Shown here in pieces: positions 31,995 to 63,494 of a stretch of 64,000 nt of DNA (position 1 is its first letter; every line of letters starts with the position of its first letter). Below the pieces are notes generated by a model. The model was not told where the DNA came from. It searched no databases and saw only the letters and a program-made list of their open reading frames with translations. The translations under genes and the position numbers were made by a program. The stretch comes from Minisyncoccota bacterium. GTDB lineage: Bacteria > Patescibacteriota > Minisyncoccia > Phycocordibacterales > JAGLPS01. Location of the stretch: NCBI GenBank assembly GCA_023137185.1, contig JAGLPS010000019.1:309-64308 (forward strand), read 5' to 3'.

Positions 31995-34694
31995 TCATCG
32001 GGTTTTTTTAATGGCAGTTTCAGCAACGAGATTTTCAGTAATTAAACTCCCCCTTCTTCCTTTTTTCACATCAAAAATAAATTCTCCGTTTTTTACGTCA
32101 ACGGAAACAGTGCCCCCTTTTACTATACCTTTGGAAATGATAAGCGAAGCGACTTGATTGAGAATTTTTGTTTGAATAAGTCTTTTAAGGGGCCGCGCGC
32201 CATATTGCGGATTGTGTCCCTCCTTAGCAAGATATTCCATCGCCTGCAAACTCACATTAAGGGTAATTTCTTTTTGATTGAGACGTTCTTGCACAAGTTT
32301 AATCTGAATTTCAACAACTTTCTTGGTAGCTTCCCTGCTCAAGATATCAAATACCACAATGTCATCTAGACGGTTTAAGAACTCGGGACGAAAATGATCT
32401 TTTAGAGCGTCCATTACTTTGCTCTTCACTTCTGTGTATGTTTCTCCTTCGCTCTTTCCCCCAAATCCGATTTTTTCCATTTTGTCTATATATCGCGCGC
32501 CGATATTCGAGGTAAGAATAATAACAGTATTTTTGAAATTCGCCGTGCGTCCTTTTGCGTCGGTAAGTTGTCCGTTATCAAGCACTTGAAGCAAAATATT
32601 AAATACTTCGGGGTGCGCTTTTTCAATCTCGTCAAAAAGAACCACAGAGTATGGTCGGTGGCGAATTTTTTCGGTCAAGCCACCTCCTTCATCGTGTCCA
32701 ACATAACCTGGAGGCGAACCGATAATTTTTGAAACTGAGTGTTTTTCCATAAATTCAGACATATCAATGCGAATAAGCGCCTTTTCATCATCAAAGAGAA
32801 ATTCGGCAAGCGCTTTCGTAAGCTCTGTTTTTCCAACGCCAGTCGGACCTAAAAACAAGAACGAACCAATCGGCCGCTGCGGATCGGAAACTCCCGCTCG
32901 TGAACGTTTGATTGTCTCTGAAATTTTAGTTACCGCTTCATTCTGTCCCACTACGCGTTTCTCTATTTCTTCCTCCATACGAACAAGTTTCTGGGCTTCG
33001 CTTTCAAGCATCCGAGACATCGGAATTCCAGTCCATCGTGAGACGATATCAGCAATGTCTCCTTCCGTCACTTCTTCTCTGAGAATTCTGCGGGAGCTTT
33101 GGAGCCTTTTTAGCCGTTTTGTTTTTGTCTCCAAATCTTTTTCAAGTAATGGGATTTTTCCATAGCGAATTTCAGCCGCTTTTCCAAGGTCAGTACGAAT
33201 TTCGGCGTTTTCAGCCTCGACTCGCGCTTCATCAAGTTCTTTTTTTATCCGCTTAATATCGGTTACCATTTCTTTTTCATTTTTCCACTTGAGCTCAAGT
33301 TCTGACGTCTTTTCCTTAAGGTCAGCAATTTCTTTTTCAATCTGTTTGACCCGCGCTTTTGTCTTGGTATTTCCTTTTTCTTTTGCTGCTTCTGTTTTTA
33401 GCGCTTCTCGTTCAATCTCAAGTTTGGTCACTTTCGAGCGGGTTTCCGCAAGCGCTGGCGGCATATTTTCAAGAGAAATTTTCAAAAATGAAGACGCCTC
33501 ATCAATAAGATCAACCGCTTTATCTGGCAAAAACCTATCAGTAATATAGCGAGCGCTTAAGGTAACAGCCGATTGAATCGCTTCATCTGTAATATGAACT
33601 CCGTGATAAAGCTCATAGCGTTCTTTAAGCCCGCGCAAGATTGCCGTAGTGTCATCAAGAGAGGGTTCAGAAACGTGAACTGGTTGAAAACGGCGAGTAA
33701 GAGCTGGATCTTTTTCAATATGTTTTTGATATTCTTTCAGTGTTGTCGCGCCGATAGCTCGTAATTCCCCGCGCGCAAGCGGAGGTTTGAGCATATTGGA
33801 GGCATCTATTGAACCTTCCGCAGCACCTGCGCCAACAATTGTATGAATTTCATCTATAAACAAAATAACTTTCCCTTCGGAACGTTCAATCTCCTTAATA
33901 ATATTTTTCAGGCGTTCTTCAAACTCTCCTCTATATTTCGTTCCAGCAACTAAAAGTCCGAGATCAAGAGATACAAGTTCTTTCCCGCGAAGTGATTCTG
34001 GCACATCGCCGCTCGCCATTTTAATGGCAAGACCTTCAACAATCGCCGTCTTCCCGACCCCAGCTTCACCAATAAGAATTGGGTTGTTCTTTGTACGTCG
34101 GGACAAAATCTGAACAATGCGGGAAATTTCGTTGTCCCGTCCGATTACCGGATCAAGTTTATTCTCCGCCGCAAGCACAGTAAGACTTCGTGTATAGCGA
34201 GCAAGCGACTTAAATCGTTTTGGCTGTTGAATATCTGTGACGTTGCCTTTCTTCAGCTCTTCAACAATTTTAAGCACTTCCTGTTTATCAATCTTAAAAC
34301 GCAAAAGAAGTTCTTTTGTTGCTCCAGGAATTTCCAAAATAGCAATAAAAAGATGCTCGGTAGAAACAAAATCATCATTAAGACTCGCCGCGACTTTAAC
34401 GCCCCCTTCAAGCACATGTGCAAGATCGGGAGTAAGGTAAATCTGGTATGACGAAGAAAGCACACCATGACTTTCAGTGCCTTCAATCGCTTCAAGTAAC
34501 GAGTCCGTAAGAAGCACATAATCTATTTCGAGCCTGTCTAAGATTGAAGCGACCATACTTTCTTCCTGCAAAATAAGCGCGGTGAGAAGATGAAGTGGAT
34601 TAACATGGTTTTGACTTCGTTCAATGGCAAGTTCATGGGCTTTGCGAATAGCCTCTTTTGCTTTGGTTGTAAATTGATTAAATGGTGGTGGCAT
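31995..34694 (-). CDS. clpB: Chaperone ClpB (Clp_N, NBD1, long coiled-coil M-domain, NBD2)
   Basis: [15 protein letters not shown] (NBD1), a coiled-coil M-domain of about 120 aa, [18 protein letters not shown] and the sensor-2 GARPLKR (NBD2). Confidence 0.9.
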
Positions 34695-40888: not shown

Positions 40889-42112
40889 ATGAAAGAAAAA
40901 AAGAAGGAGCTTTTGGAGATAGCCTTAAACAAGGCTTTGGAAAAGAGAGAAAAAGATAAAGAACGGAGAAAACTAAAATTCATACAGTGGATTGTTGCGT
41001 TGTATAGCATCGCTCTGCTATTTTCTTCCCTTTTTCTTCTTGTATCTCTCAAAATTGGAGGAATTCTGTTTATTGTAAATGTAATCTACTCACTTGCTTC
41101 ATTCAAAACCGTTTCCTCAAATGAGTTGGGGGTAGTACGTCTTTTTGGAGAAGCCGTGGCAGAATTAGAGTCAGGACTTTGTTTTGTGCCACTTGGTATT
41201 TGTGAACTCAAAACATATCCTAAAAGCACTCAAGTAATAGAAATAGGTTCCCCTCTTGAAGATGATGAGGGAAAGCCTATCCCCAAAGAAAAAATTCAAC
41301 GGACTGGTGTTGTGATCAACGACACTCCTTTTAGAATCCCTTTAAAAGGAGATCCAGAGAGTAAAAACGTTATGGACCATGCTTTGACAGTTGATTCTCG
41401 AGCGCAAGTTCAGTACGTCGTCGAAAGCACTATTGCTTTTGACGAACAAAAGAGAGACCCCAATCTTGCTAACAACGAATTAATTGAAGTTCTCAAAACA
41501 GCCGTTCAAAAATTATATGGTGACAAAACACCAAAAATGGTACTCGAGCTCATCAGCAGTGGAAGAATCAACGATGTGCTCCAGGAAGAATTGGAATGGC
41601 TTATCGGTGAACCGACATCACAACCTCCTTCGGTTCTTTCAGGAAAAGAGCCTGAGGAAAATAAGGAGGAGACCAAAGAAAAAGAATGGGAATGGGTTGA
41701 AAACAAAAGGCCATGGTGGGGAATCGACATACTGAGTGTGGGTATCACAACATTGGGCCTTCCGAGAAGGGTGAACGAAGGCCTAGCTGATGCAAGAAAA
41801 AGAGAAATACTTGCAGAGGCAGACGAAGTGCAAAGAGTTAAGGCTGGTACGGGTGACGCATTTGCACTCAGTGCACGTCTTGACGCGGAAGCAACCGGCC
41901 TAAAGAAAAAGGCTAAAGTCGGGAAAACTGTTGAAGGAAAGAGAGTTATTGAACTGGAAACAGTTCAACAAACTTTTAAGAACACGGAGAAAATCATTGT
42001 CACCCCTTCTGAAGGGTTGATGTCCACAGTAATGGGATTATCCCAAGCTGTAAAAGAAACATCCTCTTCTTCCAAAAAGAGCGCCATTGAAAAAGAAACC
42101 GTAAAAAAGTGA
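40889..42112 (+). CDS. SPFH/band-7 domain membrane protein (stomatin/HflKC/flotillin superfamily) with a coiled-coil C-terminus
   Basis: N-terminal TM segment, then SNELGVVRLFGEAVAELESGLCFVPLGICELKTYPKSTQVIE...TVDSRAQVQYVV, the SPFH pattern. Confidence 0.65.
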   Translation: MKEKKKELLEIALNKALEKREKDKERRKLKFIQWIVALYSIALLFSSLFLLVSLKIGGILFIVNVIYSLASFKTVSSNELGVVRLFGEAVAELESGLCFVPLGICELKTYPKSTQVIEIGSPLEDDEGKPIPKEKIQRTGVVINDTPFRIPLKGDPESKNVMDHALTVDSRAQVQYVVESTIAFDEQKRDPNLANNELIEVLKTAVQKLYGDKTPKMVLELISSGRINDVLQEELEWLIGEPTSQPPSVLSGKEPEENKEETKEKEWEWVENKRPWWGIDILSVGITTLGLPRRVNEGLADARKREILAEADEVQRVKAGTGDAFALSARLDAEATGLKKKAKVGKTVEGKRVIELETVQQTFKNTEKIIVTPSEGLMSTVMGLSQAVKETSSSSKKSAIEKETVKK

Positions 42113-42233
42113 GTCCCTTAAAGTGTCCGCCCCACAAAATTTTGTGGGGCGGTTTTTGTTGACTTTTTATATAATTATGCTATACTGCTATTTAGCATCG
42201 GACATTGAAAATTTGAAAAAAGGAGGAGATAAA

Positions 42234-43178
42234 ATGATTAACCCAAAAAAGTGGATGGACGCCTTAAGCAAAAAAATACAGTATCTGAACAACAAGTGTC
42301 GGGAAAAGATTTCACTTCCAACAAAAACAAAAAGGGAGGCAAAAAAAAGTCTTCTAACACGATGGTACCTTTTACAGAAAGAAAAATACGGAAAAGCAAC
42401 AGATTGTATAGTTATTGTCGTTCTTGCCTGTCTTATTATCACTGTTACAGCCATCTTTAAAAACCCAGGAATCTATCGCCTCTCGGCAAAAACAGAGATG
42501 TGGACTATTTATTCATTGATTGGAATTGCCACTATTATTCTTCTACTAAAGAGTGGTGGAGGACAAGCTGGAAAAATTATCTTTTCTTGGTTCAAAGGAA
42601 GATGGGGTGATTTGGTAAATCTGTTTGCATGGCCGGGAGTTATCTTCGCGGGTCTTGTAATGTTCAACATCTTTCTCTGGCTTGTATTCCCGGGATCATG
42701 GAATGCATGGTTTGAAAACAAAAGATGGTTTTTTGCTTCAAGCTTGTTGATTCTGACAATACCGATATTCGTCAGAACAAAAACGATAGGAGGATATACT
42801 GTAGCAGCAATACTCAGTTTTCTTATGACAGGAGGATTTATGCGCCACAATGAAATTCCTCCTTCTATTGCCTACGTGGGTAACTTCTCCCAAACACAAA
42901 CAAAAGAAGTAAAAGAACTTCCATGCCCAGCTCGAAAGGGAGATTTCTGGATTGCTGCTCCAGCTAGCGGATACGGAGAATGTGTTGGGATTCCAAATAA
43001 CTCTTCCGCGAAATTCCGCGCCGATTTTAAAGTATCTATGCAAAGAATGGACACAATGGAGGAGTATCCTAATGTGGATTACAAGACATTCAGTATCCAG
43101 AACTTTAAGGGAGTGCGATTCAAATCTCTTACAGGAAAAGACAAACAGGTTCTAATGCGTATTGAACCTAAGTCTTAG
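42234..43178 (+). CDS. Hypothetical polytopic membrane protein with a C-terminal soluble domain (possible NfeD-like partner of the SPFH protein)
   Basis: Strong RBS AGGAGGAG 6 nt upstream of the ATG at 42234. Multiple TM helices. Followed by a strong terminator. Confidence 0.45.
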   Translation: MINPKKWMDALSKKIQYLNNKCREKISLPTKTKREAKKSLLTRWYLLQKEKYGKATDCIVIVVLACLIITVTAIFKNPGIYRLSAKTEMWTIYSLIGIATIILLLKSGGGQAGKIIFSWFKGRWGDLVNLFAWPGVIFAGLVMFNIFLWLVFPGSWNAWFENKRWFFASSLLILTIPIFVRTKTIGGYTVAAILSFLMTGGFMRHNEIPPSIAYVGNFSQTQTKEVKELPCPARKGDFWIAAPASGYGECVGIPNNSSAKFRADFKVSMQRMDTMEEYPNVDYKTFSIQNFKGVRFKSLTGKDKQVLMRIEPKS

Positions 43179-43198
43179 TTACCTTGTTCTTTAAACCC

Positions 43199-43230
43199 AA
43201 AACGGGAAGACATATGTCTTCCCGTTTTTT
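43199..43230 (+). terminator. Rho-independent terminator (AACGGGAAGACA-TA-TGTCTTCCCGTT followed by TTTT), probably bidirectional
   Basis: Perfect 12-bp stem plus T-run, flanked by an A-run upstream. Confidence 0.7.
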
Positions 43231-43253
43231 ACTTTTAAAATCTAGGTGCAGTT

Positions 43254-43529
43254 TTACGGAAAACTTGGACTATAAATTCCAAAAGTGCCAATGAGTACCT
43301 GTACTATTCCATAGACACTCCCCATTATAAACATTCCAATAAGCCCCCACATAATTGCTCGTTTTCCTTGAAGACGATCGTTATCGGTCAAACCCCCCTC
43401 ACCCTTTCCACTTATCACATACTGCACTACCCCCCAAACAAAAACAATCATTGCGACTGCGAACAAAAGTCGGATAAAAGGGTCAATAATGACTTCAGAA
43501 ACGCTGTTAAGAAAGGGACCAATTGACAT
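43254..43529 (-). CDS. Small two-helix membrane protein, VirB2/TrbC (T4SS pilin)-like paralog 1
   Basis: Helix-loop-helix hydrophobic topology with a central GKGEGG loop; similar to the five upstream paralogs. Confidence 0.4.
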   Translation of the reverse strand: MSIGPFLNSVSEVIIDPFIRLLFAVAMIVFVWGVVQYVISGKGEGGLTDNDRLQGKRAIMWGLIGMFIMGSVYGIVQVLIGTFGIYSPSFP

Positions 43530-43537
43530 ATCGAGCT

Positions 43538-43879
43538 TTATTGAACTGAAGGAACAGTAACTGAAGTTGTTTCCTGAATACCAAGTGCTTGGTTAATAAA
43601 GGCTACAATACCCCAGATTGACGCCATCACAAAGAGCGCGATTACTCCCCAAAGCATCATTGTCTTTCCTTTTGTTTGTGCTTCTTCATTTCCTCCAGCA
43701 AGAAGATACATTGCCAATCCCCAAAAGAAGAAAAGAAGCGCGGCAGCAAACGCGATAGGAATAAGAAGATCAACTATTGACCCAATTGCCTGAACAAGTG
43801 TTTGCACATTGCTTAAATTCTGAGCAAACGCGATTACAGGCGCCCCCAAAATTGCAAAAAGTGCTATATTTTTTTTCAT
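43538..43879 (-). CDS. VirB2/TrbC-like pilin paralog 2 (signal peptide MKKNIALFAILGAPVIAFA)
   Basis: Core AAALLFFFWGLAMYLLAGGNEEAQTKGKTMMLWGVIALFVMASIWGIV. Confidence 0.5.
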   Translation of the reverse strand: MKKNIALFAILGAPVIAFAQNLSNVQTLVQAIGSIVDLLIPIAFAAALLFFFWGLAMYLLAGGNEEAQTKGKTMMLWGVIALFVMASIWGIVAFINQALGIQETTSVTVPSVQ

Positions 43880-44055
43880 TTTTTTGTATAAAGCTAATAA
43901 AAATAATACGAAAACGACCTCATTTTCTAACAAATCATTCTTTATAATACCTTAATTTCAAGCGAAGAACAAGGAGACTGTGGATAAATACCAAGGAGGA
44001 TAAAGCAATTTTAAGGTATTTGTTATTCAAAAAAAAGACCGACCTGATTCACCGT

Positions 44056-44370
44056 CTAAAAAATGTCTTCTTGGAAGAATGTGATAATCCCCCAAATCGA
44101 GACCATAACAAAAAGAGCGGTAATCCCCCATTGCATAAGCCGTTTACCATCGGCGCGCGCTTTCTCGTTATCAGCATTAAGAATAAACTTTGCCAATCCC
44201 CAAAAGAAGAAAAGAAGAGCGGCGGCAGCGGCAATACGAGTAAGGTCATTAAAAAAATCTACAAGGTACCACAAAATCTCTTGGATATTCTCAAAGGCTT
44301 CTGTAATGAATGGGAAAGAAACTAAAATGGAAATAAATATAAGAAAAATGGAGAATGAATATATTTTCAT
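44056..44370 (-). CDS. VirB2/TrbC-like pilin paralog 3
   Basis: Core AAAALLFFFWGLAKFILNADNEKARADGKRLMQWGITALFVMVSIWGII. Confidence 0.5.
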   Translation of the reverse strand: MKIYSFSIFLIFISILVSFPFITEAFENIQEILWYLVDFFNDLTRIAAAAALLFFFWGLAKFILNADNEKARADGKRLMQWGITALFVMVSIWGIITFFQEDIF

Positions 44371-44380
44371 AAGACCTTAA

Positions 44381-44710
44381 TTAAAAACGTGGAGCAAGCG
44401 GCACACCAAATTGAAAGTCAAAACTTCCCGCAATGATACTTGCAAGCGCCCAGGCCGAAAGAATTACGAACAGACCTATAATTCCCCACAGCATAAGTTT
44501 TTTTCCTTCTTCAACCGATTCTTCACTTCCCCCACGAGAGAGAAATTTAGCCAAACCCCATACAAAAAGAAAAAGAGCGTACGCCACCGCTGCCGGAAGC
44601 GCCAGATTTATAATTCCTATAACAATCCCTACAAAACCGCTAAAATCCTGCGGCTGAGCAAACGCCATTAGAGGAAAAAGAAATGAAATTAAAAGCAAAA
44701 AATATCGCAT
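44381..44710 (-). CDS. VirB2/TrbC-like pilin paralog 4 (signal peptide MRYFLLLISFLFPLMAFA)
   Basis: Core AYALFLFVWGLAKFLSRGGSEESVEEGKKLMLWGIIGLFVILSAWAL. Confidence 0.5.
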   Translation of the reverse strand: MRYFLLLISFLFPLMAFAQPQDFSGFVGIVIGIINLALPAAVAYALFLFVWGLAKFLSRGGSEESVEEGKKLMLWGIIGLFVILSAWALASIIAGSFDFQFGVPLAPRF

Positions 44711-44713
44711 AAA

Positions 44714-45055
44714 TTAACCTGTGATTTGGCTGATAGTATTTTCAATAACCTGCGCTATTACCCACGCGCCAAGCAGGATAATCGCTCCGATAGCGCTCCA
44801 CAAAAACGCCCGTTTTGCCACCTCCAGTTTTTCTGGGTTTCCTTGCGCCGTGACAAAAAGAAAACCAGAATAAATAATTGCCAAGACTACAATCACAGCG
44901 CCTATTGGAATAACTATATCCGTGACAATAACCTCAACAAATTTGCCAAGCGTATCAATACCTCCCTTGAGAGGATTTTCAATTCCCTGGGCAGAAACTG
45001 CTAAAGGCAGAGTGCCTGCAATAAGTGAAACAAGTGATATATATGCTTTTTTCAT
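44714..45055 (-). CDS. VirB2/TrbC-like pilin paralog 5 (signal peptide ...LAVSAQG)
   Basis: Core VLAIIYSGFLFVTAQGNPEKLEVAKRAFLWSAIGAIILLGAWVIAQV. Confidence 0.45.
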   Translation of the reverse strand: MKKAYISLVSLIAGTLPLAVSAQGIENPLKGGIDTLGKFVEVIVTDIVIPIGAVIVVLAIIYSGFLFVTAQGNPEKLEVAKRAFLWSAIGAIILLGAWVIAQVIENTISQITG

Positions 45056-45064
45056 AATAGGTAA

Positions 45065-45433
45065 TTAGAGATATGAATAGCTTTCTTTGACAAGAGCGCC
45101 GAGAATAGTGTGAACGATAAGCCACGCGCTTAAAATAATAATAAATCCCCATAACACTTTCCAAAATACTAAATGCGCCTTTTTTATCTGATTCTCACTG
45201 CCTCCTGCCGTGAGATACAAAAATCCAGCGTACACAAACGCGATAACAGCAAGAGGAATTGAGATAACAACAAGAAAATTAACGATACTGTCCCCAAGTT
45301 CCAAAAGAGACCCGAAGTTGCAATCAAGACCGTCACACGGAACAATCCCCTCTTGAGAAAATACGAGTAATGGAAAAACAAAAAAGAGAATACTCGCAAG
45401 AAAAAAAGACTTTTTAAAAATAAGTGATTTCAT
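45065..45433 (-). CDS. VirB2/TrbC-like pilin paralog 6 (signal peptide; CDGLDC motif)
   Basis: Core AVIAFVYAGFLYLTAGGSENQIKKAHLVFWKVLWGFIIILSAWLIV. Confidence 0.45.
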   Translation of the reverse strand: MKSLIFKKSFFLASILFFVFPLLVFSQEGIVPCDGLDCNFGSLLELGDSIVNFLVVISIPLAVIAFVYAGFLYLTAGGSENQIKKAHLVFWKVLWGFIIILSAWLIVHTILGALVKESYSYL

Positions 45434-46728
45434 TGGCTGCTTCTAAATAATTCTGCCATTTCGGCATGAGCCCGCAATACCGCTTCAGTTGTCGCCGTTC
45501 TTCCTCCTGTAACAGATTCTATCATAGATTGGAAAATAGCTCCTGTCGCTGTATTTTCAGGGTCAAGCCATGCTTGCGAACGCAAAGCGCTCTGATAAAA
45601 AATACTAGAATACGCGTCCCCTTTATTTTGGGACAATAAATCACGGCGCGCGGGAGGAAGAGTGGTTTCGCCGCTTAAAACGCTCGCAACCGTAGCTTCA
45701 GCAAAAGCATAGGCAACTCGTATTGAATCAGTAATGTTATCCGATGTTTTTAACACCGACAGCGCGTATACTTTGCCAAAAGTGCTCCGAGTGTCTTCGC
45801 CGCGCGCTTGTGGAAAAAGTGCAACGTCAAAATTAAGATTTGGATTTTTATTTTTGAGAGAAATAAATTCGCTCGCGAAACCAAAATATATCGCCAAATC
45901 GCCTCCTAAAAATGCGTTGTCAGAACGTGAAAGAGAACGATTCCATGAATAGAATAGTTTAATAGGATTTGAAAATTCGGTAAAGAAATTTATTGCCGCA
46001 ACAGCGGGAATAGTAGGTTTGCCAAGTTTCTCTCCAAAGACAAGGGAAACTATTCCATCTGCTTTGCGTGTTGTAATCGGACTGCCTGCCTGAATAACAA
46101 GCGCGCTAATAATATCTTTTGCATTCACTACGTTACGATACTCACCAAACGCGATAGCGCTTTCAAGAATGTTAAGAGACTGGTCTTTCTTTGTGAGTAT
46201 CGTAGAAAGATTGAAAAGTTCGTCCCAATATTGCGGCGGACGACTTATTCCAGCGTTTGAAAAAAGAGTTCGATTCCAATACATCACGAGAGGGTCAACA
46301 AGAATCGGAAAACCCATTACTCCTTCAGGAAAAAGATATAATTCCCCTTCTTCTATAAAGGTATCTTTAAATTGTCGTTCAGAAAAAGATTTGTAGGGTA
46401 CCGGAAAGATTTTGTTTCTGTGCTCCCATAACGCATCTTGAGGTAACATAACAATATCAGGACCTCTGTCTTCAGCAAGAGCTTCAATAAGCTCTTTTTC
46501 TATGGTGAGAGCATTTTTTTGCACGTAGGTGACGATAACTTCTTTCTTTGTCCCCAGAAGAGAGTGGCTCCGTATAGCCTCAGCAATCACAGATTCTGAA
46601 ATTGTGCCCCATACTTCAATATTGCCGTTGGGGCCAGGACCACTTCCTCGGTTTGTCGAAAATATAATTACCCCAGTAACAATAAATACCCCGAAAATAA
46701 TGAGTGTGATAAGTTGAAAACGTGTCAT
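45430..46728 (-). CDS. Membrane-anchored extracellular solute-binding-protein-like protein (ABC-type SBP family 1 fold)
   Basis: N-terminal TM segment. PDIVMLPQDALWEH, VMYWNRTLF and PQYWDELF are typical of MalE-like SBPs. 4-bp overlap with pilin paralog 6. Confidence 0.5.
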   Translation of the reverse strand: MTRFQLITLIIFGVFIVTGVIIFSTNRGSGPGPNGNIEVWGTISESVIAEAIRSHSLLGTKKEVIVTYVQKNALTIEKELIEALAEDRGPDIVMLPQDALWEHRNKIFPVPYKSFSERQFKDTFIEEGELYLFPEGVMGFPILVDPLVMYWNRTLFSNAGISRPPQYWDELFNLSTILTKKDQSLNILESAIAFGEYRNVVNAKDIISALVIQAGSPITTRKADGIVSLVFGEKLGKPTIPAVAAINFFTEFSNPIKLFYSWNRSLSRSDNAFLGGDLAIYFGFASEFISLKNKNPNLNFDVALFPQARGEDTRSTFGKVYALSVLKTSDNITDSIRVAYAFAEATVASVLSGETTLPPARRDLLSQNKGDAYSSIFYQSALRSQAWLDPENTATGAIFQSMIESVTGGRTATTEAVLRAHAEMAELFRSSQ

Positions 46729-47252
46729 ATTTTTTTAAATATAAGTCCGTAATGATGAGCGCCTGCTGGCATACGGCGGTCAAGCGCAAAACCGATTTCT
46801 TCAAAAATTTCTTGTGCTCTTTCCGAAGTCAGTACATTTTCTGGTGTCGGTCCCATATTTTCAAACGACGAAGTCCAGTCAATCACAAGCACTCGCCCTT
46901 TTGGTTTTAAAATCCGTCTCGCTTCTTTTACAAGTCCCGCTTTATCAGGCGTTTGGAATAAGACATTAGAAAGAAAAACAGCGTCAACAAAATTGTCGTG
47001 TAAACCGCTCCCGCCAGGTTTTTCTATATTCCCCCATATTGTTTCAATATTTTTTTTATATATATTCTCTGCTTCATTTTTTAGCTTCGCCAAAAGGTCT
47101 TTCTGAACATCAACGGCATACACTCGTCCTTTCTCTCCTACTATTTTTCCCGCGGCCAAACTGTAAAAACCCGAACCCGAACCCAAATCGGCAACACGCA
47201 TACCAGGCATAAGCCCAAAATTGGCAACATTTTTTTCAGGGTCAGAAAACAT
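46725..47252 (-). CDS. Class I SAM-dependent methyltransferase
   Basis: Motif I VADLGSGSGFYSL; post-I acidic VYAVDV. Confidence 0.7.
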   Translation of the reverse strand: MFSDPEKNVANFGLMPGMRVADLGSGSGFYSLAAGKIVGEKGRVYAVDVQKDLLAKLKNEAENIYKKNIETIWGNIEKPGGSGLHDNFVDAVFLSNVLFQTPDKAGLVKEARRILKPKGRVLVIDWTSSFENMGPTPENVLTSERAQEIFEEIGFALDRRMPAGAHHYGLIFKKI

Positions 47253-47419
47253 AAAGACAGCTTGTTAGTCCGCCAGCTGGCGGAGTAACTTATTAGCTCG
47301 TCAAATACAACAAGCTAATTATATTATAGCGCGCACAAATTTTACTTACCACATATATCCAGACACATCTGTGGAAACCTTGGCTTTCTGAAGTTTTTTC
47401 CTACAAACCAAACAAGCTG

Positions 47420-49885
47420 TTAGAGACAGATAAGAGAGGCGATACTGTCTTTGTCCCGCAACTTCATAATACGAACACCCTGCGTTGAACGACTTAAGAG
47501 TGGAATTTCTTCAATTCCAACGCGTATAACTTGGCTTTTCTTGGAAATCGCGACAATTTCACTATCTTCCTCTTCAACAATTTTTGACGCAACAAGTTGG
47601 CCGGTTTTTGTGGTTACATTTGCCGTTTTAATTCCTGAACCTCCGCGTTTTTGTATTTTATATTCTTTAATGGATGTTTTCTTGCCAAACCCGTTCGATG
47701 AAACTACCAAAAGGAACGGATTTCTCATATCTTTTGTTACAACATACGCGCCAACAATAAAATCGTTTCTAGAAAGGCGGATACACCGAACACCACCGGC
47801 GCTTCGTCCCATTTCGCGAATATCGGATTCTTTAAAGTGAATTGACTGACCCTTTCCTGTTATTGCCATAATGGTTTCACTCTTTGCTACAAATGAAGCG
47901 GAAACAAGCTCATCTCCTTTTGGCAATTTAATGGCTATAATACCGCTTCTACGCACATCGTGAAAACTTTTCGCCGCGACTTTTTTTGCAGTTCCTCCTT
48001 TTGTTACCATAAGAATAGAAAGGGGGCTTTGTTTTATCTCTATTGGCATCGAAAGCACGGAAGTAACTTTTTCCTCGGCTTCAAGTGAAAGAAAGTTTAG
48101 TATTGATTTTCCTTTAGTCGCCCGTCTTCCTTCCGGAATATCATACATTTTTATCTGATACGCCTTTCCCTTGTCAGTAAAGAAAAGCAAGTCGCTGTGA
48201 GTAGAAGCATTAAGGAAAGTTGTTACAAAATCCTCTTCTTTTGTGTTTAGGTCAACGACACCCACCCCCCCGCGTTTCTGTTTTTTAAACTCATCAGGAT
48301 TAGTTCGTTTTATATATCCGCCAGAAGTCAAAACGAGAGCATTTTCTTCGTCAGGAATTAAATCCTCTGGAGAAATAACACGCGCACCTGATTTGATAAC
48401 TTTGGTTCTCCTCTCATCTCCGTACTTATCCGAAATATCCGCAAGTCCCGCTTTTATAATTGATAGAATTTTCTTTTCGCTCGACAGAATCGTTTTGAGT
48501 TCAACAATAAGTTTTTGCGTTTCCTTTAAGTCATTCTCGATTTTCTTGCGTTCAAGACCCGCAAGTTTCTGCAACTTCATTTCAAGGATAGCGGTAGCTT
48601 GTCTGTCGGAAAACTTGAATGTTTTCATCAGTTCACTGTGCGCATTTTCCACGTCTCTCGCGGCCTTAATGAGCTTGATAATCTTGTCTATATGGTCAAG
48701 CGCCTTTTTAAGACCTAAAAGAATGTGTTCCTTCTCTTCGGCTTTGCGAAGGTCAAATTCGGTTCTTCGGCGGATAATAATAATCCGATGTTTTATGAAT
48801 TCTTGCAGAATGCCTTTAAGAGCAAGCGTATGCGGAATGCCATTTACAAGCGCAACAACATTAAAGTGGAAAGTATCTTCAAGCGCCGTATGTTTATAGA
48901 GATAATTGAGCACTTTTTGCGGGTAACTTCCTGTTTTGAGTTCTATGACAATACGAATGTCCCTTGTTGACTCGTCGCGAAGCGCTTTAATCCCTTCAAT
49001 TTTTTTATCCCGTACAAGCTCGGCAATTTTTACAATCAAATCCGCTTTATTTACCCGATACGGTAATGATGTAACGACTATCTGAAACGAACCCGCTTTT
49101 GGTTCAACAATTTCAGCAACACCACGTGTCACTACACCGCCCCGTCCTGTAGCATAGGCATGGTGGATATCTTTTTCATTAAAAATAAGGCCTCCTGTTG
49201 GAAAATCAGGACCTTTAATAAACTGCAGCAAATCTTCGGTTGTCGCGTTTTTGTTATCAATGAGATAGACGGTTGCATCAATGACTTCTCCAAGGTTATG
49301 AGGTGGTATATTTGTAGCCATACCAACAGCAATACCAAGAGTGCCATTAAGCAACAAATTCGGAGCGGCAGATGGAAGAACAGTCGGTTCTTTTTTAGTG
49401 CCGTCGTAGTTTGGGCGAAATTTTACTGTCTCTTTTTCAATGTCTTTCAAAAGCTCTCCGGAGAGTTTAGACATTTTCGCCTCTGTATATCTCATTGCCG
49501 CCGCGGAATCTCCGTCAATGTTCCCGAAGTTTCCTTGTCCCGCGATAAGCTGATAACGCATCAAAAATCCTTGTGCCATTTTTACCATTGCGTCATAGAC
49601 AGAGGCATCGCCGTGAGGATGATAATTACCGAGGACATCTCCCACTACAACCGCCGACTTTCTGAATTTTGATGTTGAAACAAGCCCCATTCGATGCATT
49701 GAATAAAGAATGCGACGCTGAACCGGCTTAAGTCCATCCCGAACATCGGGTAATGCCCTTGATGTAATAACAGACATCGCATAATCTAAATACGATTCCT
49801 TCATTTCGGAAGTTATGCTTCTCGGTACAATATTTTTGGAGCTATTTTCCGCCCCATTTTCTTGTGTATCTTTCTTTTCCGTCAT
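47420..49885 (-). CDS. gyrA: DNA gyrase subunit A
   Basis: [12 protein letters not shown]...AAMRYTE (active-site Tyr region), beta-pinwheel C-terminal domain, and a GyrA box QKRGGSG. Confidence 0.9.
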
Positions 49886-60815: not shown

Positions 60816-63494
60816 TTAAAAACTTGTAAAAGCGTTCCGCAAGCGAGTACGCCTTAAGAGCACATCTGAAATAAGATAGGACGCAAGAAGCGCAAGGGCA
60901 AGAAAATACGTGTCCTGAATATTTTTTCGGTTGAAAGCAGAAAAGACAGCAGCTTTCTGGTCAGGTAGTTTCGGCGCCGTAATAGAATCCTTAAACGCAA
61001 ACACCTTGTGAAGAAGGGGTGAAAATGGCGCATAAAACGGCATTTCGGCAGGCATTGGAGTAATATTTCCGCTATCTTTCGGAATTTCAGTCGCGACAAT
61101 CGCGCGTTTGATGACAGCCGGAAGCGCTGTTGTGGCAACTTCCTCCTCTACAAACTCTTCTGTCGCAGTAACTACGGGAGTCGGAGGAACTTCAATAATA
61201 GTATTTGAACTCGTCGCGATATTTGAATCGGCAATATATCCATAAAACGGCACTAGCGACGGATGGCGACCGGTAGCTTTCACCTGCGCGTAGTTTGTAT
61301 ATACGCCACCCGGAGTATCGGCGCTAAATATAGACGTATAAGTAACTTCAATCTCTTCATTTGGATAAATATCGTCAAGCTCCCATTGCTGCTCGTTTAG
61401 CACCTCTCCATACTCATTCTTGAGTGTATCTATAAGCACAGCATGGTGAGCAATTCCTCCTTCGTTTTTAATGACAATTCTATAGTTAACGGTTGTCGTG
61501 CCAGCAGTCGGGAAAAATACATCATTTGTTTTTGTAACAACAATTTCAGGGTCGGGGGTAAATGTGAGATTTTGGACGCCAGTTCGTCCGGGAATAAAAC
61601 TTGTCGCGAGTATTGTAAGTAAATCCCTGTTATCAATAAGGTCAGCGTCAGTTTCTGTCAATACAACATTGGTCGTTGCCACTATGTTTGTATCTTGGTA
61701 AGGAATTTCGGGGCTAATTTTTGCGTCATAGGTAACTTCTACCATTCCACCAGCTGGAATATTGCCGATATCCCAACCAGTGATTCCTTTTTCAGGGTCA
61801 ATATAGTTATACCCTTCTTCAAAAGAAATAAATTGCGGCTTATCAAATTTTGTTAACAGACGCACACCAGAAGCGTCGGCGTCACCATGGTTTATAATCG
61901 TGAAGCGATAACGAACTTCTTCGCTCTGCCCGAAGAAATTCTTTTCAGGCACTTCTACCTGTGTTCCAACCCACAAGTCGGGCATACCAAACGACACATT
62001 CCCCGCCCAGTCTCCAAAAATATTCACAATCGCCAATATCCAGTTTTGACCCATAATGTTCGTATTGGCGACATTCACGACATTCGCGCTCGCGTAAGCA
62101 TTTCCAGTATAGATATCACCTTCCCCAAGCAGATTGTCTCCGGTAAGAGCTTGAACTTGCACATCGTTATGTATGGAGGCCGTGTTTGTAGCATCCACTG
62201 TAAGTTTTGAAAGGTTGCTTGCCGCGCCCGATGTTAATTCCGCGTCAGGAGCTCCGTAGAGCTCTACCCCGGAATCTGTTTCTCTCCAATACACTCCCGG
62301 AGGCGCGTTAAATACGTCCCCAAGCCAGTTTCCATGAATACGAATAAGTATCCGAAGATTGCTTCCTCCAAAAAAGTTTGAGTTTATTTGGTTTACAACA
62401 TTTGTCCCCGCGTAGGCATCTCCTGTCTGTATATTTCCCCCGTTAACAGCCGTATTCTCTCCTGTTGAAGCCGCTGTGGTCACGCTAGTGGTAATTTCAG
62501 CCGTATTATCCGTGGAAACATCAACTCCAGAATTCGCCGTTCGCCCACCGCCAAAAAAGAAACCAGTGAAAAAATCATCATTAGGAAGCACCAAATCTCC
62601 GCCCAAACCGCCAAAATTATTGAGGGTAAATAAAAGATAATTTGAATCAATAATATTGGTATTAGCGACATTCACGACGTTCGCGCTCGCGTATGAGTCT
62701 CCCGTGGCAATAATTCCCGCGCTATCAACATTTCCTCCCGTGTTTGAACGAACCAAAACCGTATTGGAAATATCGGCAGTGCTTGTTGATGAAATCGTCT
62801 CGGATGAAGGGGCGATTTGAGCTGAACACCCGTCTCCGGAAGAGCACAAAGAGGGAGGTGAGGTAGAAGCATTTTGAAAATCGCGCAAGTCAATGTGTCC
62901 GTCAAAACCGAAAAATTGGTTTAGCAAATAAAAGAAGCCGAATGAATTAAAGATATTCGTGTTTACCACGTTAAGAACATTTGCTCCCGCGTATGAGTCC
63001 CCCGTCACAATCACTCCGGCGTCCCCGATAATTTCATTTCCTCCAGTATTTGCTTCCGTATCAACCTCATTGATAACCTCTGCCTCATTTTCAATTTCAA
63101 CGTCAATTGACAGGGGAGTGCTTGTTGCTTGTGTTAGTGTCGCCTCTGCCTCGCCTGTTTCCTCAACTACAACTTCCTCCTCGGTAGTTGCCTGCTCTTC
63201 TTCGGGAACCGGCGGATTTTCTTCGGATTCCTCCGAAGCCTCTTCTTCGTCTTGAGTACTTTCGTTTTGGGTACTGTCGTCTCCCTCAATTTCCGCTTCA
63301 TTAGTATTCACCTCATTTTCAATGTCAGTCGTCGCAACCGCGTCCCCTGTCTCAATTACCGGGTAATCGTCTGCTTCCGTAGTGCCAACGTCCTCCGCGG
63401 AAAGGATAAAAGGATAAAAGACAAGCGCAAAAACCGCGCACAACGCGAGCGCTTTGTTTAATAGGTTATTTTGTTGTAAACCAAGAAAATACAT
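60816..63494 (-). CDS. Large cell-surface protein. It has a signal peptide, an acidic region, four tandem ~35-aa repeats (TG.N...G.I.TGDAYA.ANVVNVANTNI), a DUF11-like beta domain and a C-terminal TM anchor.
   Basis: ORF track; repeats visible in the translation; hydrophobic C-terminus YFLALALLASYLISDVLL. Confidence 0.6.
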   Translation of the reverse strand: MYFLGLQQNNLLNKALALCAVFALVFYPFILSAEDVGTTEADDYPVIETGDAVATTDIENEVNTNEAEIEGDDSTQNESTQDEEEASEESEENPPVPEEEQATTEEEVVVEETGEAEATLTQATSTPLSIDVEIENEAEVINEVDTEANTGGNEIIGDAGVIVTGDSYAGANVLNVVNTNIFNSFGFFYLLNQFFGFDGHIDLRDFQNASTSPPSLCSSGDGCSAQIAPSSETISSTSTADISNTVLVRSNTGGNVDSAGIIATGDSYASANVVNVANTNIIDSNYLLFTLNNFGGLGGDLVLPNDDFFTGFFFGGGRTANSGVDVSTDNTAEITTSVTTAASTGENTAVNGGNIQTGDAYAGTNVVNQINSNFFGGSNLRILIRIHGNWLGDVFNAPPGVYWRETDSGVELYGAPDAELTSGAASNLSKLTVDATNTASIHNDVQVQALTGDNLLGEGDIYTGNAYASANVVNVANTNIMGQNWILAIVNIFGDWAGNVSFGMPDLWVGTQVEVPEKNFFGQSEEVRYRFTIINHGDADASGVRLLTKFDKPQFISFEEGYNYIDPEKGITGWDIGNIPAGGMVEVTYDAKISPEIPYQDTNIVATTNVVLTETDADLIDNRDLLTILATSFIPGRTGVQNLTFTPDPEIVVTKTNDVFFPTAGTTTVNYRIVIKNEGGIAHHAVLIDTLKNEYGEVLNEQQWELDDIYPNEEIEVTYTSIFSADTPGGVYTNYAQVKATGRHPSLVPFYGYIADSNIATSSNTIIEVPPTPVVTATEEFVEEEVATTALPAVIKRAIVATEIPKDSGNITPMPAEMPFYAPFSPLLHKVFAFKDSITAPKLPDQKAAVFSAFNRKNIQDTYFLALALLASYLISDVLLRRTRLRNAFTSF

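What the first reader, a model, noticed from the sequence alone, without database searches (positions are those of the whole stretch)
43254..47252. Tandem array of six VirB2/TrbC-like pilin paralogs, co-oriented with a membrane-anchored solute-binding-like protein and a SAM methyltransferase
Six consecutive minus-strand genes encode 91-131-aa proteins. Each has a signal peptide or N-terminal anchor and two hydrophobic helices separated by a short charged loop. The shared core is AAALLFFFWGLA.YLLAGG.EE....K.LMLWG.I.LFV..S.WG. This topology and the repeat expansion resemble T4SS/conjugative pilins (VirB2/TrbC-like; such families are expanded in reduced-genome bacteria). Immediately upstream and overlapping by 4 bp are a 432-aa protein with an ABC-type SBP fold but a TM anchor, and a small class I methyltransferase. 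dprA lies 27 kb away. A diversified pilin array may serve host attachment or DNA uptake.
Basis: partly seen in the sequence, partly recalled or inferred. Interest (0 to 1): 0.65.

Follow-up and report, generated by a model that had tools for sequence, protein, structure and literature searches.

The report
Conserved secretion-pilin operon in ultrasmall bacteria
Six small neighbouring genes in this ultrasmall (Patescibacteria) bacterium do encode type IV secretion pilin-like proteins, a kind of array already published, but here they form an ancient operon, conserved across a whole bacterial class, that is always headed by a sugar-binding-type surface protein.

Summary
Six tandem minus-strand genes (43254-45433) all pass Pfam's threshold for T4SS_pilin (PF18895). 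They follow, with 4-bp overlaps, a membrane-anchored family-1 solute-binding protein (SBP) and a class I methyltransferase.

VirB2-like pilin arrays in Patescibacteria are already published, and a six-gene array is essential in Southlakia epibionticum. The kind is therefore known.

What this work adds is that the array is not a recent expansion:
- In 71 of 73 related loci with enough downstream DNA, the SBP gene is directly followed by a co-oriented array, usually of 5-7 pilins, and gyrA usually lies upstream.
- The paralogs fall into ancient, position-fixed types: T1 first, T2 second, a variable T3-T5 middle, and a signal-peptide-less T6 last.
- A conserved internal promoter with a DnaA-box-like TTATCCACA precedes the penultimate gene.

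No VirB4, VirB6 or VirD4 gene lies in the window or within 10 kb in relatives. Five array-bearing relatives are listed as VirB4-positive in a published table.

Best reading: these are pilin subunits of the Patescibacteria T4SS, encoded away from its ATPase, with an orphan sugar-type SBP as a co-expressed accessory protein. Pilus formation and the SBP's role are inferred, not shown.

The parts
47253..47419 (-). Intergenic region between gyrA and the methyltransferase gene, and the likely operon promoter. It holds an inverted CCACA pair (TTTCCACAG...ATGTGG), a TATAAT hexamer and a 5'UTR palindrome TCCGCCAGCTGGCGGA.
   Evidence: Read directly from the sequence. Function is inferred.
46725..47252 (-). 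Class I SAM-dependent methyltransferase of 175 aa, cytoplasmic, substrate unknown. It overlaps the SBP gene by 4 bp.
   Evidence: Methyltransf_31 at 64.9 bits and Methyltransf_11 at 53.8 bits. It scores far below the cut-off of every specific NCBIfam model. It lies directly upstream of the SBP gene in 46 of 57 related loci.
45430..46728 (-). Membrane-anchored family-1 (MalE-like, oligosaccharide-type) solute-binding protein of 432 aa. It has an N-terminal TM helix and no lipobox. It is an orphan: no ABC permease or ATPase gene lies nearby.
   Evidence: SBP_bac_1 at 45.6 bits and SBP_bac_8 at 35.9 bits. The AlphaFold2 model has pLDDT 89.3, with helix 3-27 followed by the SBP fold. Foldseek's best matches are sugar and oligosaccharide SBPs at E about 1e-22. 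The best sequence-profile hit is the mannooligosaccharide-binding protein 4r9f at E=1e-16. There are more than 3105 homologues, at about 45-60% identity among the 120 listed.
45065..45433 (-). Pilin T1, 122 aa. It has a signal peptide, a Cys pair (PCDGLDC) and two TM helices. It belongs to the first-position orthogroup.
   Evidence: PF18895 at 29.0 bits. It best-matches position 1 in 52 of 54 related arrays. The conserved signature is PC-x4-C-x-F.
44714..45055 (-). Pilin T2, 113 aa. It has a signal peptide, an ENPLK motif and two TM helices. It belongs to the second-position orthogroup and is the most TrbC/VirB2-like of the six.
   Evidence: PF18895 at 36.7 bits and TrbC at 27.0 bits against a cut-off of 27.9. 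NF045849 at 37.5 bits against 40. It best-matches position 2 in 53 of 54 arrays. It shares 36% identity with the pCLJ protein encoded upstream of PrgI-VirB4.
44381..44710 (-). Pilin T3, 109 aa, of the canonical middle type.
   Evidence: PF18895 at 37.4 bits. It matches middle positions in related arrays.
44056..44370 (-). Pilin T4, 104 aa, of the canonical middle type. It shares a 34-nt stretch, 97% identical, with T5.
   Evidence: PF18895 at 35.8 bits. The shared stretch comes from blastn.
43880..44055 (-). The only long intergenic gap in the array, carrying a conserved internal promoter.
- DnaA-box-like TTATCCACA at 43979-43987.
- -35 hexamer TTGTTC at 43967-43972.
- -10 hexamer TATTAT at 43944-43949.
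- 5'UTR motif GGTCGTT at 43913-43919.
   Evidence: This is the only perfect TTATCCACA in the 64-kb window. The gap before the penultimate gene has a median of 101 nt, against 4-18 nt at the other junctions, in 54 arrays. The box is present with at most 1 mismatch in 37 of 57 gaps and is about 76-fold enriched there. It usually lies a fixed 28-29 nt upstream of the -10 hexamer. Promoter activity and the binding factor are inferred.
43538..43879 (-). Pilin T5, 113 aa, the canonical type and the penultimate-position orthogroup. It is the candidate major subunit.
   Evidence: PF18895 at 42.7 bits, the best of the six. It best-matches the penultimate position in 45 of 54 arrays. The AlphaFold2 model has pLDDT 81.9 and shows a hairpin of helices 22-60 and 65-99. 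The family profile's best PDB hit is the pilus subunit TraM, 8cw4.
43254..43529 (-). Pilin T6, 91 aa. It has two TM helices and no signal peptide. It belongs to the last-position orthogroup.
   Evidence: PF18895 at 32.2 bits. It best-matches the last position in 50 of 54 arrays. Its 62 orthologues have a median length of 93 aa with about 2 residues before helix 1.
43199..43228 (.). A 13-bp-stem hairpin flanked by A and T runs, lying between the convergent T6 gene and the 351-aa membrane-protein gene. It is the likely bidirectional terminator that ends the operon.
   Evidence: Terminator scan and the sequence itself.

Best explanation
The region is one operon, MT-SBP-T1-T2-T3-T4 / T5-T6. It encodes the pilin set of the Patescibacteria-type type IV secretion system. 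The ATPase and channel genes of that system (VirB4, VirB6, PrgI) lie elsewhere in the genome.

Proposed steps, all inferred unless marked otherwise:
1. T1-T5 are exported by Sec and cut by signal peptidase after an AxA-like motif. T6 inserts without cleavage.
2. Each protein sits in the cytoplasmic membrane as a two-helix hairpin. Both ends face outward and the short loop containing G-K-K/R faces the cytoplasm.
3. The VirB4/VirB6 machine extracts the hairpins and stacks them into a surface filament or stalk.

The six proteins are not interchangeable copies. They represent four ancient types, each with a fixed place in the operon (shown). The roles I assign to the types are inferred:
- T3-T5, the canonical type, vary in copy number, and the T5-T6 pair has its own promoter. 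I take T5 to be the bulk subunit.
- T1 and T2 have longer and variable outward-facing N-termini. In one relative the T2-type protein carries 2,000 residues of Ig/cadherin-like repeats. I take them to be minor, adhesive or initiating subunits.
- T6, which lacks a signal peptide, would be a base or terminating subunit.

The membrane-anchored sugar-type SBP is made with the pilins in every relative examined. It most likely works at the cell surface as a glycan-binding accessory, either as a receptor or sensor for host or cell-wall oligosaccharide, or as a partner of the filament base. It probably does not act as the receptor of a neighbouring ABC importer, because no such importer is encoded nearby.

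The DnaA-box-like element suggests that T5-T6 expression is tied to a DNA-binding regulator, possibly DnaA.
For: Family membership:
- All six proteins pass the PF18895 threshold.
- T2 is nearly at threshold for TrbC/VirB2 and for the Mbov_0395 pilin-like conjugal transfer family.
- The best PDB hit of the T5 profile is the pKM101 pilus subunit TraM.
- The predicted structure is a helical hairpin.

Link to T4SS loci:
- PF18895 relatives of T2 in Clostridium pCLJ and in a Pontibacillus plasmid sit immediately upstream of PrgI/TraC/VirB4-like genes.
- In S. epibionticum, six tandem PF18895 genes lie next to VirB6/VirB4 and each is essential (PMC10633639; PMC12857230).
- Five relatives that carry this same array are listed as VirB4-positive Paceibacteria in Table S1 of PMC12102498.

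Operon conservation:
- 71 of 73 loci have a pilin array directly after the SBP gene. gyrA lies upstream in 54 of 57 loci and the MT in 46 of 57.
- The same block appears in L087, L090 and L091, which carry precomputed Pfam labels.

Non-redundant types:
- The paralogs show positional orthology and type-specific conserved signatures.
- The lack of a signal peptide in T6 is conserved.

Outward-facing N-terminus:
- A 2170-aa T2-type fusion carries He_PIG, cadherin-like, PKD and fn3 repeats.

Internal promoter.

SBP:
- It has a sugar-SBP fold.
- No permease or ATPase gene appears in any of the annotated contexts.
Against: - No VirB4, VirB6, VirD4, PrgI or TraC homologue lies in the 64-kb window or within 10 kb of the array in about 80 relatives. 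The link to a T4SS is therefore indirect, and the rest of the source genome could not be searched.
- Foldseek found no significant match of the pilin model to any solved pilin. A helical hairpin carries little fold information.
- The TrbC and NF045849 thresholds are narrowly missed.
- No pilus of this type has been seen in any Patescibacteria, and monoderm conjugation systems that carry PF18895 homologues are not known to make pili. The proteins could stay in the membrane.
- The role proposed for the SBP has no direct support. It could serve an ABC importer encoded elsewhere.
- The DnaA-box reading rests on a 9-mer match alone.
Confidence: 0.6

Rival explanations
1. The six proteins are T4SS components that never form an extended pilus. 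They stay in the membrane as part of the translocation channel or its base, as may be the case for PF18895 homologues in Gram-positive conjugation loci. The long N-terminal extensions are then simply membrane-anchored surface domains.
For: PF18895 homologues sit next to PrgI-VirB4 in Firmicutes plasmids. According to PMC12102498 and PMC12857230, the systems of those organisms are not known to build pili. The 2170-aa fusion fits a plain membrane anchor as well as it fits a pilus subunit. No fold match to a pilus subunit was found.
Against: The best PDB sequence hit is a true pilus subunit. Six to nine distinct subunits, with a separately promoted abundant type, look more like a major/minor pilin set than like a channel part.
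Confidence: 0.22
2. The array is a set of interchangeable, recently expanded paralogs. They would be used for antigenic or host-range variation, as proposed for VirB2 paralogs in Bartonella and Anaplasma. This is also suggested for Patescibacteria in PMC12102498 and is implied by the first reader.
For: Identity between paralogs is low, at 15-42%. The copy number of the middle type varies from 1 to 5 between genomes. T4 and T5 share a 34-nt near-identical stretch, which hints at gene conversion.
Against: T1, T2, T5 and T6 keep their positions in 45-53 of 54 related arrays, and each has its own conserved signature. All six are individually essential in S. epibionticum. There are no silent cassettes or recombination repeats.
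Confidence: 0.06
3. The SBP and the six two-helix proteins form a T4SS-independent membrane complex. This could be an SBP-dependent uptake or sensing device whose membrane part is built from small hairpin subunits. The similarity to PF18895 would then reflect only shared hairpin architecture.
For: The SBP-pilin linkage is strict, with translational coupling and no ABC partner nearby. No T4SS gene lies nearby. One PF18895 protein gave a weak sub-threshold hit to the TRAP small subunit DctQ.
Against: All six pass a curated T4SS_pilin threshold. Homologues lie in bona fide T4SS loci that have no SBP. Array-bearing relatives do have VirB4.
Confidence: 0.08

Closest known systems
VirB2-like pilin arrays of the Patescibacteria T4SS. 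Examples are S. epibionticum SEML1_0014-0019 (Wang et al. 2023, PMC10633639) and the 441 arrays of 2-11 genes surveyed by Quinonero-Coronel et al. 2025 (PMC12102498).
   Same: - Same Pfam family (PF18895).
- Tandem co-oriented genes, six of them in S. epibionticum as well.
- Low identity between paralogs (mean 25% in the survey, 15-42% here).
- Monoderm host with a reduced genome.
   Different: - The published arrays are those located near virB4 (Fig. S9 legend). This one is far from any T4SS gene and sits next to gyrA.
- This array is headed by an SBP and usually by a methyltransferase, which neither paper mentions.
- The fixed order of four types, the signal-peptide-less last gene and the internal DnaA-box-like promoter are not described in either paper.
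Conjugative pilins of diderm T4SS: VirB2 (Agrobacterium), TrbC (RP4) and TraM (pKM101 pilus, PDB 8cw4)
   Same: - Small protein with a signal peptide and two hydrophobic helices joined by a short charged loop.
- Weak but specific sequence similarity: TrbC at 27.0 bits for T2, and 8cw4 as the best PDB hit of the T5 profile.
   Different: - The TrbC threshold is not reached.
- There is no outer membrane here and no adjacent VirB3-B11 genes.
- There are six different subunits instead of one.
- Cyclisation or C-terminal processing (known for TrbC and VirB2, from general knowledge) was not examined.
PF18895 / Mbov_0395-family 'pilin-like conjugal transfer proteins' of monoderm conjugative elements (Clostridium botulinum pCLJ, a Pontibacillus plasmid, Mycoplasma ICE)
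   Same: - Same Pfam family. T2 shares 36% identity with the pCLJ protein over 73 residues.
- Monoderm cell envelope.
- This fits the reported MPF-FATA ancestry of the Patescibacteria VirB4 (PMC12102498).
   Different: - There, one or two copies lie directly upstream of PrgI-TraC-VirB4 on a mobile element.
- Here, six copies lie on the chromosome among housekeeping genes, with an SBP.
VirB2 paralog arrays of Bartonella and Anaplasma (antigenic variation)
   Same: Tandem VirB2-family paralogs in a host-dependent bacterium.
   Different: Those arrays are interpreted as variable, lineage-specific expansions (as cited in PMC12102498). Here the paralogs are ancient and position-fixed across a whole class.
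Family-1 carbohydrate SBPs of ABC importers (MalE, CpMnBP1 4r9f/4r9g, Atu4361 4qsd)
   Same: Same fold and same family signature. The membrane tethering is as in monoderm SBPs.
   Different: - No permease or ATPase genes are adjacent in any locus examined.
- It is co-translated with pilin genes instead.
- Identity to solved SBPs is only 15-18%.

Membership tests
Pfam PF18895 T4SS_pilin | Score at or above the curated gathering cut-off of 26.6 bits | tested here: met
   All six pass. T1 29.0, T2 36.7, T3 37.4, T4 35.8, T5 42.7 and T6 32.2 bits. Precomputed Pfam labels on the identical contigs agree.
VirB2/TrbC-type conjugative pilin | Signal peptide followed by two hydrophobic helices joined by a short charged loop | tested here: met
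   Hydropathy and the alignment show this topology for T1-T5. The AlphaFold2 model of T5 has helices 22-60 and 65-99. T6 has the two helices but no signal peptide, and this absence is conserved.
VirB2/TrbC-type conjugative pilin | Pfam PF04956 TrbC score at or above the cut-off of 27.9 bits | tested here: not met
   The best score is T2 at 27.0 bits (E=5e-6). T1 scores 16.7 bits. The other four give no hit.
VirB2/TrbC-type conjugative pilin | Similarity to a pilin whose structure within a pilus is solved | tested here: inconclusive
T4SS pilin (functional sense) | Encoded with, or in the same genome as, VirB4/VirB6-type assembly components | tested here: inconclusive
   None is found in the window or within 10 kb in relatives. 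Five array-bearing relatives are 'VirB4: Yes' in Table S1 of PMC12102498. The rest of the source genome could not be searched.
T4SS pilin (functional sense) | Polymerises into an extracellular filament | not testable with these tools
   This needs microscopy or biochemistry. No multimer prediction tool was available.
NCBIfam NF045849, Mbov_0395 family pilin-like conjugal transfer protein | Score at or above the cut-off of 40 bits | tested here: not met
   T2 scores 37.5 bits and the others 11-21 bits. This is a related family, not a membership.
Antigenic-variation type VirB2 paralog array (Bartonella/Anaplasma-like) | Lineage-specific, recently duplicated and interchangeable copies | tested here: not met
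   T1 matches the first position in 52 of 54 arrays, T2 the second in 53 of 54, T5 the penultimate in 45 of 54, and T6 the last in 50 of 54. Each type has its own signature.
Family-1 extracellular solute-binding protein (PF01547/PF13416) | Pfam thresholds and a two-lobe SBP fold | tested here: met
   45.6 bits against a cut-off of 26, and 35.9 against 27. The model has pLDDT 89.3. Foldseek gives E about 1e-22 to sugar SBPs. The profile gives E=1e-16 to 4r9f.
ABC importer receptor (functional sense) | Adjacent permease and ATPase genes | tested here: not met
   No BPD_transp or ABC_tran gene appears in any annotated context or among the ORFs of the window that were scanned. A partner elsewhere in the genome cannot be excluded.
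Class I SAM-dependent methyltransferase | Pfam thresholds for the Methyltransf_11/25/31 families | tested here: met
   64.9, 53.8 and 48.2 bits. No specific NCBIfam equivalog threshold is reached, so the substrate is unknown.
DnaA box | Match to the consensus TTATCCACA and binding by DnaA | tested here: inconclusive
   There is a perfect match at 43979-43987, unique in the window. The element is conserved and about 76-fold enriched at the same place in relatives. Binding by DnaA rather than another factor cannot be tested here.

The most novel reading that the evidence does not exclude
The sugar-type SBP is an integral extracellular part of the Paceibacteria T4SS filament apparatus. It could be a glycan receptor that docks or triggers a heteromeric VirB2-type filament on the host cell wall, or it could capture host-derived oligosaccharide delivered along the filament. 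Production of the main subunits (T5 and T6) would be timed by DnaA through the conserved box, coupling host contact to the epibiont's replication cycle. If so, this would be an SBP recruited into a secretion or pilus machine, and the first cis-regulatory link between replication control and a T4SS in these organisms.
Probability: 0.15. Interest if true: 0.8.

Novelty: new variant of a known kind. Interest (0 to 1): 0.48.

Why it matters
The T4SS is one of the few machines shown to be essential for the epibiotic life of a Patescibacterium, and its function is still unknown (PMC11665869).

Paceibacteria are the class best represented in the published survey dataset (PMC12102498), and almost none are cultured. 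This work shows three things about them:
- Their pilin set is a fixed ensemble of four protein types, not a pool of variants.
- The set is always co-expressed with a sugar-binding-type surface protein.
- Its probable main subunit has a separately conserved promoter element.

This gives concrete handles for experiment. It says which subunit to tag, which ligand class to screen and which promoter to probe. It also argues against the antigenic-variation reading offered in the literature.

A second point is that PF18895 homologues sit in Firmicutes conjugation loci. The pilin may therefore have arrived together with the monoderm-type T4SS rather than being borrowed from diderm systems.

Tried and rejected
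- Foldseek of the T5 model against the PDB gave only non-significant helical-bundle hits. A two-helix hairpin is too simple for fold search.
- A profile of the six window paralogs alone found nothing in PDB sequences. The deeper T5 family profile was needed.
- phmmer with Firmicutes VirB4, TraC and PrgI sequences found nothing in the window or in the loci fetched up to that point. Sensitivity to divergent Patescibacteria VirB4 is limited.
- The generic sigma-70 and terminator scan of 43000-47600 found no more sites than shuffled sequence. The internal promoter was recognised only by comparing loci.
- The RNA fold of the T4-T5 gap is no more stable than shuffles, with z=+1.1. Rfam finds only tRNAs in the window. 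A structured RNA element there is therefore rejected.
- I considered that the SBP might be a lipoprotein. It has no Cys or lipobox and carries a TM anchor instead.
- I considered that the 131-aa ORF was real. I rejected it in favour of the 113-aa form.
- Literature searches for an SBP-pilin link in Patescibacteria found nothing.
- I could not map conserved SBP residues onto the binding cleft, because model coordinates are not exposed.

Full report
**1. What is in the sequence**

The minus strand between 43254 and 47252 carries eight tightly packed genes. I name the six small ones T1-T6 in transcription order.

| Gene | Coordinates | Length |
|---|---|---|
| Class I methyltransferase (MT) | 46725-47252 | 175 aa |
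| SBP-like protein | 45430-46728 | 432 aa |
| T1 | 45065-45433 | 122 aa |
| T2 | 44714-45055 | 113 aa |
| T3 | 44381-44710 | 109 aa |
| T4 | 44056-44370 | 104 aa |
| T5 | 43538-43879 | 113 aa |
| T6 | 43254-43529 | 91 aa |

- The MT/SBP and SBP/T1 junctions each overlap by 4 bp.
- The other junctions are 3-10 nt, except for a 176-nt gap between T4 and T5.
- A 13-bp-stem hairpin at 43199-43228 ends the unit, opposite a convergent gene.
- gyrA lies just upstream at 47420-49885.
The ATG at 43879 gives 113 aa and matches the conserved MKK start of orthologues.

**2. Family assignment**

- All six small proteins exceed Pfam's curated threshold for PF18895 T4SS_pilin, scoring 29.0-42.7 bits against 26.6.
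- T2 almost reaches the TrbC/VirB2 threshold, at 27.0 bits against 27.9. It also almost reaches NCBIfam's Mbov_0395 pilin-like conjugal-transfer family, at 37.5 bits against 40.
- T1-T5 each have a signal peptide ending in an AxA-like motif, followed by two hydrophobic helices around a short loop that contains G-K-K/R. T6 has the two helices only.
- An AlphaFold2 model of T5 (pLDDT 81.9) is a long helical hairpin.
- Foldseek on that model found nothing significant, which is expected for so simple a fold.
- The T5 family profile's best hit among all PDB sequences is TraM, the VirB2-type subunit of the solved pKM101 pilus, at E=0.0075.
- tblastn of T2 against plasmids found PF18895 proteins in Clostridium botulinum pCLJ-type plasmids and in a Pontibacillus plasmid. 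They lie directly upstream of PrgI, TraC and VirB4-like ATPase genes and cell-wall hydrolase genes.

The family is therefore a real component of T4SS loci, including those of monoderm bacteria.

**3. The neighbours**

- The 432-aa protein has an N-terminal TM helix and a confident two-lobe SBP fold (pLDDT 89.3).
- Its best structural and sequence matches are sugar and oligosaccharide SBPs such as 4qsd, 4r9g, 2zyo and MalE, at 15-18% identity.
- The methyltransferase is a generic class I enzyme with no specific assignment.
- The rest of the 64-kb window is housekeeping: ClpB, TopA, RelA, IF-2, DnaX, ParB, FtsA, FtsZ, DprA and others. No VirB4, VirB6, VirD4, PilB or ABC transporter gene was found.

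**4. Origin and conservation**

- The same sequence occurs in a metagenome-assembled genome whose depositor labelled it 'Candidatus Pacebacteria bacterium'.
- The SBP has more than 3105 homologues. The 120 best listed share about 45-60% identity with it over the full length.
- A scan of one genome per species found 555 loci encoding a relative. I analysed the best 80.
- In 71 of the 73 loci with at least 450 nt downstream, a co-oriented pilin gene starts within 400 nt of the SBP stop, and often overlaps it by 4 bp.
- One of the two exceptions, L074, shows a pilin ORF cut off by the contig end.
- gyrA lies within 3 kb upstream in 54 of 57 loci, and the MT directly upstream in 46 of 57.
- The 58 complete arrays have these sizes: 25 with six genes, 18 with seven, 10 with five, 2 with four, 2 with two and 1 with eight. 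A Wolfebacteria genome has nine.
- The named relatives are Zambryski-, Taylor- and Wolfebacteria and 'Paceibacterota', that is, the GTDB class Paceibacteria.

**5. The paralogs are ancient and position-fixed**

Best-match analysis against the 54 arrays of five to eight genes gives these results:

| Window gene | Position it best matches | Arrays |
|---|---|---|
| T1 | first | 52 of 54 |
| T2 | second | 53 of 54 |
| T5 | penultimate | 45 of 54 |
| T6 | last | 50 of 54 |
| T3, T4 | mixed, middle positions | - |

- Typed by their best window paralog, the common array patterns are 1-2-3-5-5-6 and 1-2-3-5-5-5-6. Only the canonical middle type changes in number.
- Each type has its own conserved signature. 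T1 has PC-x4-C-x-F. T2 has I-x-NP...IIYAGFLFVTAQGN. T5 has LIPI...FFWGLAK...MIWGVIALFVM. T6 has ILNP...WGI-GMFIMFSVYGII.
- T6-type proteins lack a signal peptide throughout, with a median length of 93 aa.

This contradicts a recent expansion or an antigenic-variation pool. It fits the finding that each of the six tandem PF18895 genes of S. epibionticum is individually essential (PMC10633639 tables).

**6. Clues to function**

- Both ends of a VirB2-type hairpin face outward, so N-terminal extensions are displayed outside the cell.
- T1- and T2-type proteins have the longest and most variable N-termini.
- In the closest non-identical relative, a T2-type gene encodes 2170 residues. It has a signal peptide, then He_PIG, Big_9, cadherin-like, PKD and fn3 repeats, then the pilin hairpin. 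That is an adhesin-like display.
- The T4-T5 gap is the only long junction in these arrays, with a median of 101 nt against 4-18 nt elsewhere. It holds a conserved promoter.
- In the window the promoter reads TTATCCACA (43979-43987), G, five bases, TTGTTC, 17 nt, TATTAT.
- That 9-mer is the DnaA-box consensus and is the only perfect copy in the 64 kb.
- Across 57 related gaps it is perfect in 14 and within one mismatch in 37. Fourteen of the 27 perfect copies in 1.0 Mb of loci fall in these 6.8 kb.
- In most of the forward-oriented sites its end lies 28-29 nt upstream of the -10 hexamer.
- T5 and T6 therefore probably have their own regulated, strong promoter, which is why I propose T5 as the bulk subunit.

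**7. Link to a T4SS**

- None of the annotated contexts shows a T4SS ATPase within 10 kb.
- phmmer with Firmicutes VirB4, TraC and PrgI sequences finds nothing in the window or in the loci fetched up to that point.
- The published survey found VirB4 in 2417 of 3035 Patescibacteria assemblies. In Paceibacteria it often lies near dnaA and dnaN (PMC12102498).
- Table S1 of that survey lists five genomes that carry this array as Paceibacteria with VirB4 present. They correspond to L014, L020, L083, L085 and L091.
- The survey's count of 441 arrays refers to arrays near virB4 (Fig. S9 legend). This explains why the gyrA/SBP-linked arrays were not highlighted there.

**8. Comparison with what is known, and verdict**

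The kind is known. VirB2-like pilin arrays of the Patescibacteria T4SS are described in PMC10633639, PMC12102498 and PMC12857230.

This locus is a clade-wide variant of that kind:
- It is unlinked from virB4.
- It is embedded in a housekeeping neighbourhood.
- It is headed by an orphan sugar-type SBP and usually by a methyltransferase.
- It has four position-fixed pilin types and a conserved internal promoter element.

I found no paper in the searchable library that describes the SBP link.

What is shown:
- the gene content and the family membership;
- the membrane topology;
- the conservation across the class and the positional orthology;
- the conservation of the promoter motif.

What is inferred:
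- pilus formation;
- the division of labour among the pilin types;
- the SBP's role;
- DnaA control of the internal promoter.

Noticed in passing
window 43880-44055 (minus strand); box at 43979-43987: The only perfect DnaA-box consensus (TTATCCACA) in the 64-kb window lies just upstream of a -35/-10 pair in the T4-T5 gap. The same element sits at the same place in 37 of 57 related arrays (at most 1 mismatch), about 76-fold enriched, usually 28-29 nt from the -10. It is in reverse orientation (CTGTGGATTA) in Zambryski-like arrays.
   Followed up: yes
window 43913-43919 (minus strand) and the same gap in L010, L011, L013, L042, L056 and others: A second enriched motif, GGTCGTT, often followed by ATTATTAG, lies in the presumed 5'UTR 25-40 nt before the T5-type start codon. 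It occurs in 18 of 58 gaps, about 50-fold enriched. It is too far from the start codon to be a Shine-Dalgarno site, and no RNA structure is supported. It remains unexplained.
   Followed up: partly
L007:9747-16259: In the closest non-identical relative, one array gene encodes a 2170-aa protein. It has a signal peptide, then He_PIG, Big_9, cadherin-like, PKD and fn3 repeats, then a C-terminal T2-type pilin hairpin. The ORF spans a short run of N in the assembly.
   Followed up: partly
L089:8851-9228 (C. botulinum pCLJ) and L088:8755-9667 (Pontibacillus plasmid): PF18895 pilin-like genes lie directly upstream of PrgI-TraC-VirB4-like genes on Firmicutes plasmids. This is at odds with the statement in PMC12102498 that monoderm (MPF-FATA) systems lack VirB2 homologues. 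It suggests the Patescibacteria pilin could have come with that system.
   Followed up: partly
window 44190-44223 and 43714-43747 (approximate; T4 nt 148-181 and T5 nt 133-166): T4 and T5 share a 34-nt stretch that is 97% identical, encoding AAALLFFFWGLA, although the proteins are only 42% identical overall. This may be gene conversion or strong constraint.
   Followed up: no
L067:13576-14313: A 245-aa array member contains two PF18895 stretches, that is, two pilin hairpins fused in tandem.
   Followed up: no
window 47253-47419 (minus strand): Upstream of the methyltransferase gene there is an inverted CCACA pair (TTTCCACAG...ATGTGG), a TATAAT hexamer and a perfect 16-nt palindrome TCCGCCAGCTGGCGGA in the 5'UTR.
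   Followed up: no
window 40889-43178 (plus strand): Convergent with the array is a pair of genes: an SPFH/Band-7 protein (407 aa) and a multi-TM protein (351 aa) with no Pfam match. An SPFH gene followed by an unannotated gene recurs downstream of the array in many relatives (L014, L029, L087, L090).
   Followed up: partly
window 9597-10748 (minus strand): A DAHP synthase I family gene (214 bits) occurs in what otherwise looks like a reduced genome. The family also includes KDO8P synthases. Neither role is expected in a typical Patescibacterium.
   Followed up: no
window 60816-63494 (minus strand): An 892-aa ORF has only a weak sub-threshold DUF7507 hit. It may be a large surface protein.
   Followed up: no
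window 10982-13363 and 31995-34694 (minus strand): There are two Clp/Hsp100-type ATPases. One is a full ClpB-like protein of 899 aa. In the other, of 793 aa, only the second AAA module scores well.
   Followed up: no
L009-L081 record titles: Many loci with this Paceibacteria-type synteny come from assemblies titled 'uncultured Candidatus Saccharibacteria bacterium'. The window's own source is labelled 'Candidatus Pacebacteria'. These depositor names probably do not reflect the true lineage.
   Followed up: no
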